Source of the DNA: a virus
Direction: 5' to 3' (one strand)
DNA length: 64,000 bases
IMG/VR virus record: IMGVR_UViG_3300000976_000011
Coordinates: 1 to 64,000 of that record
Shown here: in pieces, positions 6,103 to 63,291 of the stretch
Position numbering within the stretch: position 1 is the first letter of the stretch
Layout of the letters: each line of letters starts with the position of its first letter
Notes under the pieces: generated by a model
Databases searched by the model: none
What the model saw: the letters and a program-made list of their open reading frames with translations, nothing else
What the model was told of the DNA's origin: nothing
Position numbers and translations under genes: made by a program

Positions 6103-7284
6103 TTATCCCTTAATACACATTACTTGTTTTAAAGTATGAACGACTTCAACTAAATCATCTTGTGCTTCCATAACTTTATCAATATCTTTATAGGCTGATG
6201 GTGTCTCATCAATAACATCGTAATCTATTCGACATTCAACACCTTCTACAGATTTCTTATGTTCAGACATACTAACTAATTTCTTAGCTTTAGATCTAGA
6301 CATAACTCTTCCAGCTCCATGCGAACACGAATTAAAAGATTCTTTATTGCCTAAACCTCTTACAATAAATGATTTGGCACCCATAGAACCAGGAATAATT
6401 CCCAATTGACCTTCTTTAGCACTTACAGCGCCTTTACGGGTCACCCAAACATTTTCTTTGTAGTGATTTTCTTTTTCTACATAGTTATGATGACAGTCGA
6501 TGGCATGTTGTTCCCATCTAAAATCTTTAGTATGCTTATGTAAAATATCTAAAGCTTTAGTCATCATAATATCTCTATTAAATTTGGCAAATGTCTGAGC
6601 CCAATCAATAGATCTAATATAGTCATCGAAGTGTTTAGATCCTTCTGGTAAATAAGAAAGATCTTCATCTGGAATATTACAAAACCAGCGCTTCATTTCT
6701 TCTTTCGCCTTAGAGATAAAATATCTACCAATAGCGTTACCAACTCCTCTAGAACCAGAGTGTAGCATAACCCAGACGAAGTCTTTTTCATCTAAACAAA
6801 TTTCAACAAAGTGATTACCGCCACCTAAAGTACCTAAATGTTTAACATTATTAGTATCTTTAATAGGAGCTATCTCACAAAGTTCATCAAATTCTTTTGC
6901 TAGATAATCTGACCAAATCTTTTCAGTTCCGCCATCTAGTTTATCATGTTTTCCAAAGCCTACTGGAATAACAGCTTCCATACCTAATCTAATATTCTTT
7001 AGATCATCAGGAAGATCTTTTGCCTTTAATGATGTTTTAACAGCCTGCATTCCACAACCTAAGTCAACACCTACCGTAGCTGGAATAATAGCTTTCTTAG
7101 TAGCTAAAACTGTTCCAATTGCGCATCCTTTTCCTAAGTGAGCATCTGGCATCGAAGCAATCCACTTATGGATGAATGGCATACTGGCTAAATTATTTAA
7201 TTGATCTAGGGTGTTATCGTCAATATGAACACCTTCATGCCAAGTTTTAATTGAAGCCTGATTGCCTTTATTTATTGCTTTCAT
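6103..7284 (-). CDS. rtcB: RtcB RNA 3'-phosphate/5'-OH ligase
   Basis: MPDAH, GVDLGCGM, GTLGGGNHFVE, HSGSRG, HHNY, TRKGA, PGSMG, SHGAGR, DETPSAYK. Confidence 0.97.
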   Translation of the reverse strand: MKAINKGNQASIKTWHEGVHIDDNTLDQLNNLASMPFIHKWIASMPDAHLGKGCAIGTVLATKKAIIPATVGVDLGCGMQAVKTSLKAKDLPDDLKNIRLGMEAVIPVGFGKHDKLDGGTEKIWSDYLAKEFDELCEIAPIKDTNNVKHLGTLGGGNHFVEICLDEKDFVWVMLHSGSRGVGNAIGRYFISKAKEEMKRWFCNIPDEDLSYLPEGSKHFDDYIRSIDWAQTFAKFNRDIMMTKALDILHKHTKDFRWEQHAIDCHHNYVEKENHYKENVWVTRKGAVSAKEGQLGIIPGSMGAKSFIVRGLGNKESFNSCSHGAGRVMSRSKAKKLVSMSEHKKSVEGVECRIDYDVIDETPSAYKDIDKVMEAQDDLVEVVHTLKQVMCIKG

Positions 7285-31938: not shown

Positions 31939-33027
31939 TTAAAATAATCCATCTGATTCATGTTTTCGTTTATTAATTATATCATAAAACGAATCAAATG
32001 TTAATGGTAATATTCTTTTTATTTGAGCTTTTTCATTATTTTTAATAGCTTCGAAGCAGGCAAATTGACAAAAAGTAATTTCAGTACCAAAAGTTGTGAG
32101 ATATCCATCACGCTCTAAATTATTCTTATAGAATTCAAATAATTCTTCAGATTCAAACTCAAAGAATTCATGTTGGTGATCTCTAATAGATAAAATTATG
32201 TTCTCCATGGCGTTATTGTTATTCAACTTAACATCAGGAAAAACGAATTCCATACCACGTTTAGCACCAGGACCTACAAGACAATAGTTATCATCTTCAT
32301 CTATATGTTTTAAGTCTTCAGACCTACTAAAATTGCATGGAGGATGATAACCAAAATATGGTCCTATGCCTCTATGACTAATTAACCATTCACAAACATC
32401 AGATAATTTATTTTCTTTATCAATCACTACAGAGCTAAGACCTAAATCGTCCAAATGCACTATCCATTCTATCATATCAGATAAATGAAATTTTCTTTGA
32501 GGGTCAACATATTTTTCTCTGCAATAATTTCTTGCAGCAGTCTGTAATGATGTCTGTAATTGTGTTTTACCCCACACGGCTAACTTCATTTGATTTATAT
32601 TTAGGTTCTCATTAATAAAATCAAAGTATTTAACGTCCTTTCTATAAAGATCAAAATCTATTATATTAGAATAATCTAGAGAGTTGGTGGCCACTAGGGT
32701 AAGTGTTGGCATTCCAACAAATTTTACTACCATAGCATTAAGAATTTTATTTCTTAATGAAGTATCTTTATTAAATACAAAATTTTCTAGCCAATATACT
32801 TCAGCGTGCTTAGATCGATTTGGATTCCAATATGAAACTTCTTGTCTCATAGCAGGCCCAAATAAAGGATTCTCTACATACTCATCTATACGATCTGATT
32901 CTCTAAGACATTCTCGCTTAAAGAAATCTAAGACCCATGTATTAAAATAATCAAAATTTTCTTTATTGGTCATATCTTTAAGTTGACCTAAAGATAGCGG
33001 TTTTTCTTTATAAGATTGTATCTTCAA
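31939..33027 (-). CDS. aGPT-Pplase / amino acid:DNA transferase-like (HhH fold) DNA-modifying enzyme
   Basis: RGIGPYFGY, VGPGAKRGM..VF, E...CQF motifs; ends in GLF. Confidence 0.75.
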   Translation of the reverse strand: MKIQSYKEKPLSLGQLKDMTNKENFDYFNTWVLDFFKRECLRESDRIDEYVENPLFGPAMRQEVSYWNPNRSKHAEVYWLENFVFNKDTSLRNKILNAMVVKFVGMPTLTLVATNSLDYSNIIDFDLYRKDVKYFDFINENLNINQMKLAVWGKTQLQTSLQTAARNYCREKYVDPQRKFHLSDMIEWIVHLDDLGLSSVVIDKENKLSDVCEWLISHRGIGPYFGYHPPCNFSRSEDLKHIDEDDNYCLVGPGAKRGMEFVFPDVKLNNNNAMENIILSIRDHQHEFFEFESEELFEFYKNNLERDGYLTTFGTEITFCQFACFEAIKNNEKAQIKRILPLTFDSFYDIINKRKHESDGLF

Positions 33028-57650: not shown

Positions 57651-57698
57651 GCCGTAGTTGTACGAATGTAGGTGGTCTGAATCCACCCTACGGCGCCA
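57651..57698 (+). ncRNA. 48-nt minihelix tRNA-like RNA
   Basis: GCCGTAG/CTACGGC acceptor, GGTGG-TCTGAAT-CCACC T arm, G73, CCA; 13-nt connector only. Confidence 0.75.
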
Positions 57699-57714
57699 AT
57701 TTTGATATTATAAT

Positions 57715-57789
57715 GCGGAGAAGTATTGGTTATACAAACTGAAGATTAATATTTCAGTTATCAGGTTCGATTCCTAGGCTCCGTGAACA
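57715..57789 (+). ncRNA. degenerate tRNA-like element
   Basis: GCGGAG/CTCCGT, D-like arm, 8-bp central stem, GGTTCGATTCC; no CCA. Confidence 0.55.
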
Positions 57790-57830
57790 TTTGTGAGTTA
57801 ATAGGCAAGGTTATAATATTAAATTTTTCT

Positions 57831-59278: not shown

Positions 59279-59368
59279 GCGTAGACTGAGCATTGGCGAG
59301 CTCAAGTGGCTGTAACCCACCCGCATATAAATAAGTCTGTATAGGTTCAACTCCTATTCTGCGCACCA
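59279..59368 (+). tRNA. tRNA-Tyr(GTA)
   Basis: Class II; CTGTAAC; CCA. Confidence 0.92.
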
Positions 59369-60201: not shown

Positions 60202-60273
60202 GCCCAAGGCAATTGGATGCACACCGGCCTACGAAGCTGGTTCTTATAGGTTCGAGTCCTATCTTGGGTGCCA
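60202..60273 (+). tRNA. tRNA-Arg(ACG), 5' D stem apparently truncated
   Basis: CTACGAA loop, T arm and CCA intact; about 4 nt missing after acceptor stem. Confidence 0.75.
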
Positions 60274-60923: not shown

Positions 60924-61077
60924 AGGTGCAGTGTAACAATTATTAACTCAACAACGGTTAATATCAGAATAAAAGAACTAGAGAATTTAATAACTAATTG
61001 TAAGAATTATAAAAAGTTAAAAATTCTTGAGAAAGATCTAACATCCTTTAGATGTATAAAAATATTATTGGATAATA

Positions 61078-61404
61078 ATGGAAAAAGTACTTAGAGAGTG
61101 GCTAAACGAAGAAGATTCTTCAGATAATGGTTGGTTTAAATTCGAAATGGCTGCTGACTGTGAAGAAGTATATTGTGATTTAACTATAGCTGATTGTTCG
61201 AGATCTGTTCATTTATCTATTACTTGGGCTGAAGATGATTCTAAGTATCGAAAGAATTTAGAACAGGCTAAAGCTAAAATGGATAAACTTATCGAAGGTT
61301 TAGTAAGTTTTAGAAATGATTTCGATAAATTTCACGAACATTTCTTAGAAGAAAAAGATAAAGCTATTAAAAAACGAGAAGAAGCTAAAAATAAAGAAAA
61401 ATAA
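61078..61404 (+). CDS. hypothetical protein
   Basis: REWLN...IADC.RSV.L..K.D.L phage family pattern. Confidence 0.75.
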   Translation: MEKVLREWLNEEDSSDNGWFKFEMAADCEEVYCDLTIADCSRSVHLSITWAEDDSKYRKNLEQAKAKMDKLIEGLVSFRNDFDKFHEHFLEEKDKAIKKREEAKNKEK

Positions 61405-61406
61405 TC

Positions 61407-61451
61407 GTTTACAATATTATCCGGTAGTATATAATTATTCTATCAGTTAAA
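61407..61451 (+). promoter_or_regulatory. sigma70-type early promoter
   Basis: GTTTACA...TATAAT followed by ATCAGTTAAA. Confidence 0.85.
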
Positions 61452-61458
61452 CAAATAT

Positions 61459-61544
61459 ACCCTTTGTTCCTGACATCGGTCTTCTAAACCGATCCTTTAA
61501 TGTTAGGTGGTAAGTGTGAGGTTCGATTCCTCCAGAGGGTGCCA
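61459..61544 (+). tRNA. non-canonical tRNA-Arg(TCT)-like RNA with rearranged D region
   Basis: Acceptor ACCCTTT(G)/(C)AGAGGGT, TCGGT-CTTCTAA-ACCGA arm, T loop TTCGATT, G73, CCA. Confidence 0.75.
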
Positions 61545-61548
61545 TAAT

Positions 61549-61712
61549 ACTCGGGAGCACAGTGGATGACCGTTATCATCACGACTGAGGTATTAGTACA
61601 GTTCCAAAATTTGTACTCTAAGTCTATGATTCTTAGGTTAAAAATCATCTTTTAACAATAGGTAAATTGTGAGCTAAGATTGATAGCTGGTTATCGAAAC
61701 GTAAATTCGAGT
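61549..61712 (+). ncRNA. unidentified multibranch RNA (about 165 nt)
   Basis: ACTCGGG/TTCGAGT closure with five or more hairpins. Confidence 0.6.
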
Positions 61713-61759
61713 TAGGAAAAGTAGTGTCAACGTTCCTTGCCTAAATCTAGAACAAATAT

Positions 61760-61836
61760 CGCGGTTGTAGGAAGGGTGGTCCCTACTGAGGCTCATAACC
61801 TTTAGTTACCTAGTTCGATTCTAGCCTCCGCTACCA
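61760..61836 (+). tRNA. tRNA-Met(CAT), initiator-like, imperfect stems
   Basis: C1 mismatch; CTCATAA loop; CCA. Confidence 0.7.
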
Positions 61837-61837
61837 A

Positions 61838-61914
61838 CGAGATAAGGCGAACAAGGTGGACGCACTAGATTCATAACCTAGTTATGGCTGATTCGATTTC
61901 AGCTATCTCGACCA
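61838..61914 (+). tRNA. tRNA-Met/Ile2(CAT)
   Basis: Cloverleaf; TTCATAA; CCA. Confidence 0.9.
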
Positions 61915-61923
61915 AAACTACAT

Positions 61924-62042
61924 ACACGGGTCTGGTACTGTTAGGTTCTTCGAAGGCCGACCAGAGGACATCGCGTAATAGGATAATATACTAGTACCTT
62001 GCTTCCTATTGATTAGGGGTTCGATTCCTCTTCTGTGTACCA
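61924..62042 (+). ncRNA. 119-nt tRNA-like RNA
   Basis: ACACGGG/TCTGTGT acceptor, AGGGG-TTCGATT-CCTCT T arm, CCA; two long arms. Confidence 0.75.
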
Positions 62043-62049
62043 TTATTAG

Positions 62050-62164
62050 CGTCGGAAAGCATTTGCAAAGATCAATTAAGAAGAGAGGGCAGTTACCCGA
62101 GATCATAGGTTGATGCGCCAGGTAGCTCCTGAGAAGTTAGGTTCGAATCCAACTCCGACGGCCA
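62050..62164 (+). ncRNA. 115-nt tRNA-like RNA
   Basis: CGTCGGA/TCCGACG acceptor, GGTTCGAATCC, CCA; non-cloverleaf interior. Confidence 0.75.
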
Positions 62165-62166
62165 TT

Positions 62167-62394
62167 ATGAAATATAAGTATGAAGTTAAAATAGTTCCTG
62201 AACTTCCTAATGGAATGGAACCCGCTTGCAGAGTTTTATCAGAAACTGAAGTATTATTTTTGATAGATATATCTTATAGAAAGGATAAAACTGAGAAAGA
62301 GATTGTTTCGAATCTGATGCAATTTACTAAAGGTTTTGTTAATCCTGCTTTAATTGTAAAAGTATTAAGAAATTATCAAAGGAATTTATTATGA
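62167..62394 (+). CDS. hypothetical protein
   Basis: Start trimmed to exclude the ncRNA. Confidence 0.6.
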   Translation: MKYKYEVKIVPELPNGMEPACRVLSETEVLFLIDISYRKDKTEKEIVSNLMQFTKGFVNPALIVKVLRNYQRNLL

Positions 62395-62705
62395 AAAAGA
62401 TTTTTATTTTATCCCTGATTATTTTATCAGGATGTGTAGAACCAAGTTTTAGATTTATACATACTAAAGCTAAAGTTTCAGAACAAGGTATTTGTATAGA
62501 AGACGAATGCTCATATAAAATAAAAACTGAATTAGGTGAAAATGATTTTATAAATATAAGAAGTCCCGCTTCGGTTGGTCAAACTGTTTATAAGATCTGT
62601 AGAAGTAAAAAGAATAAAATATATAATTGTGGTTGGTACGTAGAAAACGACCTAAGATATATTAATTTAGAAGAAAAACCAAGCTCGATTAGCTCAGTCA
62701 GGTAG
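62391..62705 (+). CDS. lipoprotein
   Basis: LSGC lipobox. Confidence 0.7.
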   Translation: MKKIFILSLIILSGCVEPSFRFIHTKAKVSEQGICIEDECSYKIKTELGENDFINIRSPASVGQTVYKICRSKKNKIYNCGWYVENDLRYINLEEKPSSISSVR

Positions 62706-62760
62706 AGCTCTGTCCTTACAAGTCAGGTAAGCAATGGTTCGAATCCATTATCGAGTACCA
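62683..62760 (+). tRNA. tRNA-Val(TAC)
   Basis: Cloverleaf; CTTACAA; CCA. Confidence 0.93.
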
Positions 62761-62780
62761 ATTTTTACAATGAGTATATT

Positions 62781-63080
62781 ATGTTCAAATTCTTCAAGAA
62801 GAAACCAAAATATCCCACCAAAAATAATCCTACCACTTTTGAAATACATAGTGGATGGGGAGATAATATCAGTTGGTTAAATACCGAACAATTTAATAAT
62901 TATACGGAAGATACCATCTTTAAAGTTTATGGTCATCTACCATTTGAATTTCCAGAAGTAGGCGATCTACTCGAAGGATATTTTGAATCAGGTGAAGTAA
63001 TGTTTAAATTTATAAAGGTTCAAAGAAAATCTGATCCTAGAGATATGTTTTTCGCAGAGGTTGTATTACATGAAGGTTAA
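62781..63080 (+). CDS. hypothetical protein
   Basis: GWGD.I, P.VGD, DPRDMFFA motifs. Confidence 0.7.
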   Translation: MFKFFKKKPKYPTKNNPTTFEIHSGWGDNISWLNTEQFNNYTEDTIFKVYGHLPFEFPEVGDLLEGYFESGEVMFKFIKVQRKSDPRDMFFAEVVLHEG

Positions 63081-63291
63081 AACTCTATATTCTGAATTAG
63101 AGATAATTCATAAAGGTGGACAAGAGCTAGTTGAGAGTTCAGTTGATGCTACGTTCCAAACGCGATTTGGCATTTGTTTATCTTTATTAAAGCCAATGGA
63201 ATTAGAAAGAACCAAATTCTTACAAGATATAATTGATGGAAAAATTAAAGGAGCTGAAGCTAGAAGAATAGCAATTCAGAAATTTACATAA
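63070..63291 (+). CDS. hypothetical protein
   Basis: Packed ORF. Confidence 0.55.
   Translation: MKVKTLYSELEIIHKGGQELVESSVDATFQTRFGICLSLLKPMELERTKFLQDIIDGKIKGAEARRIAIQKFT

What the first reader, a model, noticed from the sequence alone, without database searches (positions are those of the whole stretch)
61459..61544. tRNA-Arg(TCT)-like RNA with the D element moved 3' of the anticodon arm
Seen: normal acceptor stem, T arm and CCA, and a perfect anticodon arm (TCGGT-CTTCTAA-ACCGA), but no D hairpin 5' of it. Instead CCTGACA pairs with TGTTAGG located after the anticodon arm, and a D-loop-like TGGTAA follows just before the T arm. Inference: a topologically rewired tRNA that may still form the elbow. 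The AGA codon in the right leader peptide suggests it is a working decoder.
Basis: partly seen in the sequence, partly recalled or inferred. Interest (0 to 1): 0.7.

Follow-up and report, generated by a model that had tools for sequence, protein, structure and literature searches.

The report
Phage arginine tRNA with relocated D-arm
This phage carries an arginine tRNA (anticodon UCU) that has no D-arm in the normal place and uses a covarying long-range helix and a pseudoknot instead; it belongs to a large, unannotated family found in hundreds of cultured phages, a tRNA shape I could not find described for bacteria or their viruses.

Summary
Window 61459-61544 (+) is a tRNA-Arg(UCU)-like gene with an encoded CCA, a perfect anticodon arm and no D hairpin. 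ARAGORN and Rfam's tRNA model both miss it.

It is not a one-off or a pseudogene. More than 75 distinct relatives were collected from viral contigs, and blastn matched 345 cultured-phage records (Vibrio, Acinetobacter, Aeromonas, E. coli phage Av-05, Salmonella phage Arash). It is never annotated as a tRNA there. About 37 more copies sit in tRNA arrays of bacterial MAGs.

Covariation supports four structural points:
- The acceptor and T stems are 8 bp and 4 bp, not 7 and 5.
- A second 3-bp stem crosses the first helix, which makes a pseudoknot.
- A conserved NNGGA loop sits just before the T arm.

The gene fills the Arg(UCU) slot in otherwise complete tRNA sets. One phage carries CCU and UCU copies in tandem. 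AGA makes up 70% of this phage's Arg codons and falls on conserved Arg residues. The same architecture also exists for tRNA-Tyr(GUA).

My best reading is a working AGA decoder with a rewired core. Function is inferred, not shown. I found no publication describing it. The scan had flagged this same stretch once before, in an overlapping window.

The parts
61408..61435 (+). Sigma-70-like promoter: TTTACA, 16-nt spacer, TATAAT. It lies 24 nt upstream of the RNA's 5' end.
   Evidence: 11 of 12 consensus positions, the best match in 61000-63200. This is a consensus match only.
61459..61466 (+). Acceptor stem, 5' strand (ACCCUUUG, 8 nt).
   Evidence: It pairs with 61533-61540. The eighth pair is supported by covariation in 58 of 64 relatives.
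61467..61468 (+). UU linker.
61469..61474 (+). Helix H1, 5' strand (CCUGAC). It sits where the D arm would normally be and runs straight into the anticodon stem.
61475..61475 (+). A, equivalent to position 26. It probably pairs with U61493.
   Evidence: A:U in 40 of 64 relatives.
61476..61492 (+). Anticodon arm UCGGU-CUUCUAA-ACCGA, with anticodon UCU at 61483-61485, U33 and A37.
   Evidence: All or nearly all of its pairs covary (4 of 5, 5 of 5).
61494..61496 (+). V stem, 5' strand (CCU). It is weak in this copy.
   Evidence: Across the family, 90.6% of cells pair against 57.7% when shuffled. In the window's clade only CC/GG is kept, and the window itself has a C.A mismatch.
61497..61501 (+). 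Loop L2 (UUAAU), the A-rich loop seen across the family.
61502..61507 (+). Helix H1, 3' strand (GUUAGG).
61508..61511 (+). Loop L3 (UGGU). The family consensus is NNGGA. It is the candidate stand-in for G18, G19 and A20 of a D loop.
   Evidence: The structural role is inferred.
61512..61517 (+). V stem 3' strand (AAG) followed by a 3-nt connector (UGU).
61518..61532 (+). T arm: GAGG-UUCGAUU-CCUC, with a 4-bp stem.
61533..61544 (+). Acceptor stem 3' strand (CAGAGGGU), discriminator G61541 and encoded CCA.
   Evidence: CCA is encoded in 53 of 64 relatives.

Best explanation
Window 61459-61544 encodes the phage's tRNA-Arg(UCU), built on a non-cloverleaf core.

Shown by sequence and covariation:
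- An 8-bp acceptor stem stacked on a 4-bp T stem (8/4 instead of 7/5), then a discriminator base and an encoded CCA.
- No D hairpin. Instead, 5-6 nt right after the acceptor stem run directly into the anticodon stem and pair with a segment that lies 3' of the anticodon arm. I call this helix H1.
- A standard anticodon arm, C-U-UCU-A-A.
- A 3-bp stem (V) between the nucleotides just after the anticodon arm and those just before the T arm. It crosses H1, so the core is a pseudoknot.
- A conserved loop NNGGA between H1 and V.

Inferred:
- H1 stacks on the anticodon stem and stands in for the D stem.
- The GG of the loop docks on the T loop to make the elbow, and the following A plays the role of A20, the main ArgRS determinant. 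In the window copy the loop reads GGU and the A comes one position later.
- The RNA is transcribed from the TTTACA/TATAAT promoter as the first gene of a tRNA operon and is cut out by RNase P and 3' nucleases.
- It is charged by the host ArgRS through C35, U36, the A20-like base and N73.
- It reads AGA, the dominant Arg codon of this 30.7% GC phage.

The gene belongs to a large family spread through phages of many hosts and through tRNA arrays in bacterial assemblies.
For: Structure:
- H1 pairs at all five positions in 44 of 49 distinct sequences, with 24 different 5' strands.
- With a register fixed independently of the 5' strand, 98.8% of H1 cells pair. The shuffle mean is 71.8% and the maximum 78.4%.
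- In a gap-free set of 15 sequences, 99.7% of all cells pair, against 78% when shuffled and 37-47% when the partner is slid. H1 has 4 of 5 pairs and V has 2 of 3 pairs with changes on both sides.
- In the window's own clade, H1 pairs in 100% of cells and 4 of 6 pairs change on both sides.
- Position 8 pairs with the nucleotide after the 4-bp T stem in 58 of 64 sequences (GC, UA, AU, CG, UG). The 49:65-equivalent pair forms in only 9 of 64.

Family:
- 57 hits score at least 38 bits with a covariance model built from the family, while canonical tRNAs score 34 bits or less.
- blastn finds 345 cultured-phage records, with no tRNA annotated under any of the 40 listed matches. An RF00005 search of three of these genomes skips the gene.

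Function:
- The phage has about 24 other tRNAs, including Arg(ACG), but no other Arg(UCU).
- Across 96 viral loci carrying the gene, 416 tRNAs called by ARAGORN include only 2 separate canonical tRNA-Arg(tct) genes.
- In a Pyrinomonadaceae array of 32 tRNAs the gene fills the missing tct slot.
- A search that did not fix the anticodon gave 35 UCU, 1 CCU and 1 GUA.
- Aeromonas phage AhSzw-1 has CCU and UCU copies in tandem, with different H1, acceptor and anticodon stems.
- Discriminators are A 25, U 21, G 17 and C 1. GGA occurs in 62 of 64 sequences, and C35 and U36 are present. This matches the bacterial Arg identity set A/G/U73, A20, C35, U/G36 (PMC9976931).
- AGA is 70% of Arg codons, 28.6 per 1000 codons. 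It encodes the conserved Arg residues of RtcB: GSRG, NR, HGAGR, SR.
- A promoter-like site lies directly upstream.
Against: - There are no expression, aminoacylation or structure-probing data, so decoding is inferred from distribution and identity elements.
- The window copy deviates from the family consensus. Its loop reads GUGGU, so the A20-like base is one position further on, and its V stem is reduced to CC/AG with one mismatch.
- The thermodynamic signal alone is weak: z = -1.87, and 10 of 200 shuffles fold as well.
- Most family members were found with patterns that fixed CUUCUAA or the T loop, so conservation of those elements is partly by construction. This is only partly offset by the anticodon-free scan and the blastn hits.
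- Two loci also carry a canonical tRNA-Arg(tct) next to the rewired one, so the gene is not always a replacement.
- Whether EF-Tu, ArgRS, RNase P and the ribosome accept this core is unknown.
Confidence: 0.7

Rival explanations
1. It is a tRNA mimic that is not used in translation. It would act as a decoy or sponge for a host tRNA-targeting nuclease or another tRNA-binding defence protein. It presents an Arg(UCU)-type anticodon loop and acceptor end on an aberrant body.
For: The body is non-canonical, yet the anticodon loop, T loop and CCA are kept. The phage encodes an RtcB RNA ligase among its tRNA genes, which fits pressure from tRNA-cleaving defences. The only other anticodon found on this architecture, Tyr GUA, belongs to a tRNA that, from my own recollection and not checked here, is a known target of tRNA-cleaving defence systems and toxins.
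Against: A decoy would be expected alongside a working tRNA-Arg(UCU), not in place of it. In 96 loci and in complete tRNA arrays the canonical tct gene is almost always missing. The discriminator spectrum, the GGA motif and the UCU-to-CCU paralogue follow ArgRS and decoding logic. The 12-bp acceptor/T branch needed by EF-Tu is preserved as 8+4.
Confidence: 0.13
2. It is a recoding or mischarging tRNA. The long variable region and the 8/4 branch would make it a substrate for SerRS (as for allo-tRNAs) or another synthetase, so that AGA is read as something other than Arg.
For: The 8/4 branch and the long extra region resemble the allo-tRNAs that Mukai et al. grouped with (8/4) tRNA-Ser (PMC5389517; serylation itself is my recollection). 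D-armless mitochondrial tRNA-Ser(UCU) reads AGA as Ser (PMC7609411). The tRNA-Sec model is the only Rfam model that matches.
Against: AGA accounts for 70% of Arg codons. If AGA were not Arg, Arg would make up only about 1.2% of residues. AGA encodes the invariant catalytic-site Arg residues of RtcB. The V stem is only 3 bp with a loop of about 18 nt, unlike a class II variable arm. C35, U36, the A20-like base and the A/G/U discriminators fit Arg identity.
Confidence: 0.05
3. It is a decaying tRNA pseudogene, or a chance tRNA-like stretch left over from rearrangement of the tRNA cluster.
For: ARAGORN and the Rfam tRNA model reject it. Several other orphan T-arm motifs lie in the same cluster.
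Against: The gene is 83% identical to a copy in an unrelated Nitrincola phage, and the match stops at the gene's edges. Compensatory changes occur in every helix across more than 75 distinct sequences. Standalone copies exactly fill intergenic gaps in Salmonella phage Arash and Vibrio phage D119.
Confidence: 0.02

Closest known systems
Canonical bacterial and phage tRNA-Arg(UCU), for example E. coli argU-type genes and the tRNA-Arg genes common in large phages.
   Same: The anticodon loop is C-U-UCU-A-A. The T loop is UUCRAUU. The discriminator is A, G or U and CCA is encoded. The gene sits in phage tRNA clusters and serves AGA-rich phage genes.
   Different: There is no D hairpin between the acceptor and anticodon stems. 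The acceptor/T branch is 8/4 instead of 7/5. About 25 nt lie between the anticodon and T arms, and they form a long-range helix and a pseudoknot stem. RF00005 and ARAGORN do not detect it.
(8/4) tRNAs and allo-tRNAs of Mukai et al. 2017 (PMC5389517), including the (8/4) tRNA-Ser and tRNA-His of phages.
   Same: The 12-bp acceptor branch is split 8/4. The segment between the anticodon and T arms is long. Both occur in phages, and the present family also occurs in Acidobacteria-type MAGs. Both score weakly against the tRNA-Sec model.
   Different: As I recall, the tRNAs drawn in that paper are cloverleaves that keep a D arm and a hairpin variable arm, whereas here the D arm is absent and the extra region pairs with the 5' linker. 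Text searches of the paper gave no occurrence of 'UCU' or 'pseudoknot' and only one occurrence of 'D-arm', in the introduction.
D-armless metazoan mitochondrial tRNA-Ser(UCU/GCU) (PMC7609411, PMC9427863).
   Same: No D arm, and the anticodon reads AGN codons.
   Different: The mitochondrial tRNAs are shrunken, have short connectors and degenerate T loops, rely on adapted organellar partners and carry Ser. The phage RNA is longer than a normal tRNA, keeps a canonical T loop and a GG motif, and replaces the D stem with a new covarying helix. It must work with ordinary bacterial machinery.
Class II tRNAs with a long variable arm (bacterial Tyr, Leu, Ser).
   Same: A stem closes the extra region between the anticodon and T arms. 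A sister family with the same rewired architecture carries the Tyr anticodon GUA.
   Different: The stem is only 3-4 bp and its loop of about 18 nt pairs with the 5' linker. Class II tRNAs keep their D arm.
The engineered non-canonical tRNA evolved to work in E. coli (PMC11551756).
   Same: A tRNA with a non-cloverleaf fold that serves, or is intended to serve, bacterial translation.
   Different: That tRNA is a laboratory construct. [quoted passage not shown] The present family is natural and widespread.

Membership tests
tRNA (Rfam RF00005, canonical cloverleaf) | Acceptor stem closed by the 5' and 3' ends, followed by a discriminator and CCA. | tested here: met
   An 8-bp stem, G73 and an encoded CCA. 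The stem covaries.
tRNA (Rfam RF00005, canonical cloverleaf) | Anticodon arm with a 5-bp stem and a 7-nt loop carrying U33 and a purine at position 37. | tested here: met
   UCGGU-CUUCUAA-ACCGA. All 5 pairs show changes on both sides.
tRNA (Rfam RF00005, canonical cloverleaf) | T arm with a UUCRAnY loop. | tested here: met
   GAGG-UUCGAUU-CCUC, although the stem is 4 bp rather than 5.
tRNA (Rfam RF00005, canonical cloverleaf) | D-arm hairpin between position 9 and position 26. | tested here: not met
   Only 9 nt separate the acceptor and anticodon stems, and 5-6 of them pair with a segment 3' of the anticodon arm.
tRNA (Rfam RF00005, canonical cloverleaf) | Reaches the family's gathering score or is called by a tRNA finder. 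| tested here: not met
   No RF00005 match is listed at 61459-61544 at gathering score or at E up to 10. ARAGORN does not call it. Copies in Av-05, Arash and the Nitrincola phage are also missed.
(8/4) tRNAs and allo-tRNAs (Mukai 2017) | 12-bp acceptor branch made of an 8-bp acceptor stem and a 4-bp T stem. | tested here: met
   Position 8 pairs with the nucleotide after the 4-bp T stem in 58 of 64 sequences, with covariation. The 49:65-type pair forms in 9 of 64.
(8/4) tRNAs and allo-tRNAs (Mukai 2017) | Cloverleaf with a D arm plus a long hairpin variable arm. | tested here: not met
   There is no D arm. The extra region forms a 3-bp stem with a loop of about 18 nt that pairs with the 5' linker.
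tRNA-Sec (RF01852) | Gathering score of 47 bits, anticodon UCA, 6-bp D stem. | tested here: not met
   The score is 33.1 bits. The anticodon is UCU. The model's D-arm positions are skipped in the alignment.
D-armless mitochondrial tRNA-Ser(AGN) | Lacks the D arm, is a truncated molecule with short connectors, and is organellar. | tested here: not met
   The D arm is absent, but the RNA is 86 nt long, has a canonical T loop and a compensating helix, and is encoded by a phage.
Arginine-accepting tRNA (bacterial ArgRS identity set) | C35, U/G36, A/G/U73 and A20 (PMC9976931). | tested here: inconclusive
   C35, U36 and G73 are present in the window copy. Across the family, N73 is A 25, U 21, G 17 and C 1, and a GGA motif occurs in 62 of 64 sequences. 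Whether that A occupies the A20 pocket cannot be told from sequence, and the window reads GGU-A.
Arginine-accepting tRNA (bacterial ArgRS identity set) | Aminoacylation with arginine. | not testable with these tools
   This needs an in vitro or in vivo charging assay.

The most novel reading that the evidence does not exclude
These RNAs would be a natural structural class of fully functional tRNAs, Arg(UCU/CCU) and Tyr(GUA), whose D-stem strand and D loop have been moved to the 3' side of the anticodon arm and locked by a pseudoknot. Phages and mobile tRNA arrays would have evolved this class because the altered body is no longer recognised by host tRNA-targeting defence nucleases, while ArgRS or TyrRS, EF-Tu and the ribosome still accept it. 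Standard tRNA finders miss them, so phage tRNA repertoires would have been undercounted for exactly these specificities.
Probability: 0.25. Interest if true: 0.95.

Novelty: new variant of a known kind. Interest (0 to 1): 0.86.

Why it matters
The cloverleaf with its D arm is treated as universal outside animal mitochondria. A 2024 paper opens by stating that all known bacterial tRNAs adopt it (PMC11551756).

If this family is charged and used, the bacterial translation machinery (RNase P, ArgRS, EF-Tu, the ribosome, modification enzymes) accepts a tRNA whose core is wired differently: one strand of the D stem comes from the variable region, and the core contains a pseudoknot. That would bear on several things:
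- how the L-shape is specified;
- how ArgRS finds its main determinant, A20;
- the design of orthogonal tRNAs;
- why phages carry their own tRNAs, possibly to escape tRNA-cleaving immunity.

It also exposes an annotation blind spot. The gene is unannotated in hundreds of cultured phage genomes, including phages of E. coli O157:H7, Salmonella, Vibrio, Aeromonas and Acinetobacter. Because those phages are in culture, every claim here can be tested at the bench.

Tried and rejected
- **Canonical fold with a hidden D arm.** Rejected. Too few nucleotides lie 5' of the anticodon stem, and they covary with the 3' segment.
- **Local hairpin in the variable region** (CCU...AGG, competing with H1). Rejected. 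It is not conserved in relatives such as L060, L008 and L081, whereas the long-range pairing is.
Not conserved.
- **MAFFT and covariance-model alignments of the whole family** (A1, A3). They put the H1 3' strand out of register in some rows, so I did not use them for counting. I used gap-free length classes (A4), the window's subclade (A5) and a script with a register fixed independently of the 5' strand.
- **Thermodynamics alone.** Not convincing.
- **tRNA-Sec reading.** Rejected.
- **Other anticodons on this architecture.** Only UCU, CCU and GUA turned up in 4.45 Mb of fetched loci. One CGA hit was spurious.
- **The Tyr-type family in cultured phages.** No blastn match.
- **Short-linker subgroup** (AUCGGA ... 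CCGUAAYGGA; L191, L123, L199 and others). It is clearly related, but I could not settle its pairing register.
- **Literature.** Seven full-text searches found nothing describing a D-armless or rewired phage or bacterial tRNA. The library lacks most subscription journals, so prior description cannot be excluded.
- **Not run.** The metagenome scan, RNA 3D modelling (no tool available) and identification of the phage's host.

Full report
**1. The observation**

The window is part of a 141,675-bp phage genome with direct terminal repeats and 30.7% GC. At 61459-61544 on the + strand the sequence reads as follows:

ACCCUUUG-UU-CCUGAC-A-UCGGU-CUUCUAA-ACCGA-U-CCU-UUAAU-GUUAGG-UGGU-AAG-UGU-GAGG-UUCGAUU-CCUC-CAGAGGGU-G-CCA

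No D hairpin can form. CCUGAC pairs with GUUAGG on the far side of the anticodon arm.

The minimum-free-energy fold reproduces this structure at -25.2 kcal/mol. Its z-score of -1.87 would not convince on its own. ARAGORN tRNAs in the window and 21 in the genome, but not this one. Rfam gives no tRNA match here. Its only hit is a sub-threshold match to tRNA-Sec, 33 bits against a gathering score of 47, and that alignment skips the D arm.

**2. A conserved gene family**

blastn against cultured phages found an 83% identical copy in Nitrincola phage 1M3-16. The match stops at the edges of the gene, and the copy is unannotated and sits next to the phage's only canonical tRNA.

Pattern scans of IMG/VR then returned dozens of distinct relatives. 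A covariance model built from them separates the family, at 38 to 91 bits with the window copy at 74.7, from ordinary tRNAs at 34 bits or less.

One subfamily is present in 345 cultured-phage records: Vibrio 307, Acinetobacter 32, Aeromonas 3, Escherichia phage Av-05 and Salmonella phage Arash. Under every one of the 40 listed matches the annotation shows either nothing or 'hypothetical protein'. In Arash and in Vibrio phage D119 the gene exactly fills a 100-nt gap between protein-coding genes.

About 37 further copies lie in bacterial assemblies, mostly Pyrinomonadaceae and Verrucomicrobiales MAGs. In the assemblies I inspected (10 loci), most copies, including all the Pyrinomonadaceae and Verrucomicrobiales ones, sit inside dense tRNA arrays.

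**3. The structure, from covariation**

Parsing 49 and then 64-75 distinct sequences gives one architecture:

- acceptor stem, 8 bp
- linker, 2 nt
- helix H1, 5' strand, 5-6 nt
- A (position 26 equivalent)
- anticodon arm
- U (position 44 equivalent)
- stem V, 5' strand, 3 nt
- A-rich loop L2, 4-10 nt
- helix H1, 3' strand
- loop L3, NNGGA
- stem V, 3' strand
- connector, 2-3 nt
- T arm with a 4-bp stem
- acceptor stem 3' strand, then N73 and CCA

- It pairs at 5 of 5 positions in 44 of 49 sequences, with 24 different 5' strands.
- With a register defined without looking at the 5' strand, 98.8% of cells pair, against a shuffle mean of 71.8% and a maximum of 78.4%.
- In a gap-free alignment of 15 sequences, the pair-counting tool finds 99.7% of cells paired, against 78% when shuffled and 37-47% when the partner is slid. 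Four of five H1 pairs and two of three V pairs change on both sides.
- In the window's own clade of 18 sequences, the 6-bp H1 pairs in 100% of cells and four pairs change on both sides. Examples are CCUGAC/GUUAGG, CCUCAC/GUGGGG, CCCGAU/AUUGGG and CCCGUC/GAUGGG.

Position 8 pairs with the nucleotide after a 4-bp T stem in 58 of 64 sequences, and that pair covaries. The usual 49:65 pair forms in only 9 of 64. The branch is therefore 8/4, as in the tRNAs of Mukai et al. (PMC5389517).

V and H1 cross, so the core is a pseudoknot. In the window copy V is weak, CC/AG with one mismatch.

**4. What the topology means (inference)**

In a normal tRNA the 3' strand of the D stem runs into the anticodon stem, and the 5' strand is followed by the D loop with G18, G19 and A20.

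Here the strand that runs into the anticodon stem comes straight from the acceptor stem. Its partner strand, followed by a GG(A) loop, has moved to the 3' side of the anticodon arm, just before the T arm. All the helices of the L-shape could therefore still form with different chain connectivity. It has not been tested structurally.

**5. Evidence that it decodes AGA as arginine**

- The phage carries about 24 other tRNAs, including a near-canonical tRNA-Arg(ACG) at 60202-60273 and a class II tRNA-Tyr that the finders also miss. It has no other Arg(UCU).
- Around 96 viral copies, ARAGORN finds 416 tRNAs. Only two of them are separate canonical tRNA-Arg(tct) genes.
- In a Pyrinomonadaceae array of 32 tRNAs, the gcg, cct and tcg Arg genes are present and the rewired gene fills the tct gap.
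- A scan that did not fix the anticodon gave 35 UCU, one CCU and one GUA.
- The CCU copy sits 8 nt upstream of a UCU copy in Aeromonas phage AhSzw-1. The two differ by compensated changes in H1 and in the other stems.
- Discriminators are A, U or G in 63 of 64 sequences, GGA is present in 62 of 64, and C35 and U36 are present. This matches the published bacterial Arg identity set.
- AGA makes up 70% of Arg codons in 125 long ORFs.
- In the phage's RtcB, AGA encodes the conserved GSRG, NR, HGAGR and SR arginines. This argues against reading AGA as Ser.
- A TTTACA-16-TATAAT site lies 24 nt upstream.

**6. Rival explanations**

- A non-translating decoy for tRNA-targeting defences cannot be excluded. 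The phage does encode RtcB. But a decoy does not explain why the gene replaces the canonical gene rather than sitting beside it.
- A mischarging tRNA is unlikely, given the codon evidence above.
- A pseudogene is excluded by the covariation.

**7. Comparison with known tRNAs, and novelty**

The same architecture exists for tRNA-Tyr(GUA) in many viral contigs. No other anticodon was seen in 4.45 Mb of fetched sequence.

| Known tRNA type | Shared with this family | Not shared |
|---|---|---|
| 8/4 allo-tRNAs | 8/4 acceptor/T branch | as I recall, they keep a D arm |
| Mitochondrial tRNA-Ser(UCU) | no D arm | they have no compensating helix |
| Class II tRNAs | a stem closing the extra region | the pairing of that region with the 5' linker |

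Seven full-text searches and two reviews of non-canonical tRNAs turned up no description of this family. A 2024 paper states that all known bacterial tRNAs are cloverleaves. The library is incomplete, so earlier description cannot be ruled out.

The scan's own notes show the same stretch was flagged once before in an overlapping window, as a D-armless Arg(UCU) tRNA-like RNA.

**8. Verdict**

This is a real, conserved and structurally novel tRNA-Arg(UCU). Function as an AGA decoder is likely but unproven.

Noticed in passing
IMG/VR loci, e.g. L262:5452-5545, L140:3908-3997, L265, L282, L340: A sister family of tRNA-Tyr(GUA) genes has the same rewired architecture: no D arm, CCCUAC/GUAGGG-type long-range helix, GCC/GGC crossing stem and a UGG loop. 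About 40 distinct sequences turned up in viral contigs. None was found in cultured phages by blastn.
   Followed up: partly
L506:1407-1491 and 1500-1584 (Aeromonas phage AhSzw-1, NC_047950): Rewired tRNA-Arg(CCU) and tRNA-Arg(UCU) genes sit in tandem, 8 nt apart, and neither is annotated. An HNH-endonuclease-like ORF lies just upstream.
   Followed up: partly
window 60202-60273 (+): A near-canonical tRNA-Arg(ACG) with a 3-bp D stem is missed by ARAGORN and by Rfam at gathering score. It folds as a cloverleaf.
   Followed up: partly
window about 59279-59366 (+): A class II tRNA-Tyr(GUA), with a D arm, a long variable arm and a UUCAACU T loop, is not called by ARAGORN or Rfam.
   Followed up: no
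window 61926-62042 (+): A 117-nt stretch ends in a good T arm (GGGG-UUCGAUU-CCUC) and GUGUACCA, and its 5' end could pair with that 3' end. The interior fits no tRNA fold and shows no thermodynamic signal. It may be another aberrant tRNA or one carrying an insert.
   Followed up: partly
window 61549-61712 (+): About 165 nt between the rewired tRNA and tRNA-Met contain no ORF. Only chance-level sub-threshold Rfam matches (SmY, snoTBR7; E above 1) fall in this stretch.
   Followed up: no
window 57690-57790 (+), 62075-62172 (+), 7945 (-), 59555 (+): Further orphan T-arm motifs (GGUUCGAuuCC), some followed by CCA-like ends, lie outside any called tRNA. The one near 57764 has a stem with a 9-nt loop, GAUUAAUAU.
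   Followed up: no
window 6103-7284 (-): An RtcB RNA ligase gene (Pfam E = 6e-124) is embedded in the left tRNA cluster. This fits repair of tRNAs cleaved by host defences.
   Followed up: partly
window 31939-33027 (-): An ORF matches the 5-hmdU DNA kinase helical domain, which hints that the phage hypermodifies thymidine in its DNA.
   Followed up: no
L001:2440-2610 (Nitrincola phage 1M3-16): A perfect 15-bp inverted repeat (CTTGGAAGGCTCTGG / CCAGAGCCTTCCAAG) encloses two T-arm-like hairpins. It is unannotated and about 400 nt upstream of the rewired tRNA.
   Followed up: no
L457, L469, L492, L453, L500, L470 (Pyrinomonadaceae and Verrucomicrobiales MAG contigs): Dense tRNA arrays, with 13-32 tRNAs in 8 kb or less, carry the rewired tRNA-Arg(UCU). 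Whether they are prophage, mobile or chromosomal was not determined.
   Followed up: partly
L361, L368, L371, L355, L385 and others (GC-rich viral contigs): Another odd tRNA-like family has the form GCCGGAG...AGCGCC-AUAGAUC/AUGGAUC-GGCGCU...GGAUGGAUGCGCGG-UUCGAUU-CCGCGCUCCGGCA. The loop triplet varies between AGA and GGA, and position 37 is a pyrimidine.
   Followed up: no
L191, L123, L199, L196, L171, L164, L480, L455: A shorter relative of the family has a 6-nt linker (AUCGGA), a 7/5 acceptor/T branch and the motif CCGUAAYGGA after the anticodon arm. It is also D-armless with anticodon UCU. Its pairing register was not resolved.
   Followed up: partly
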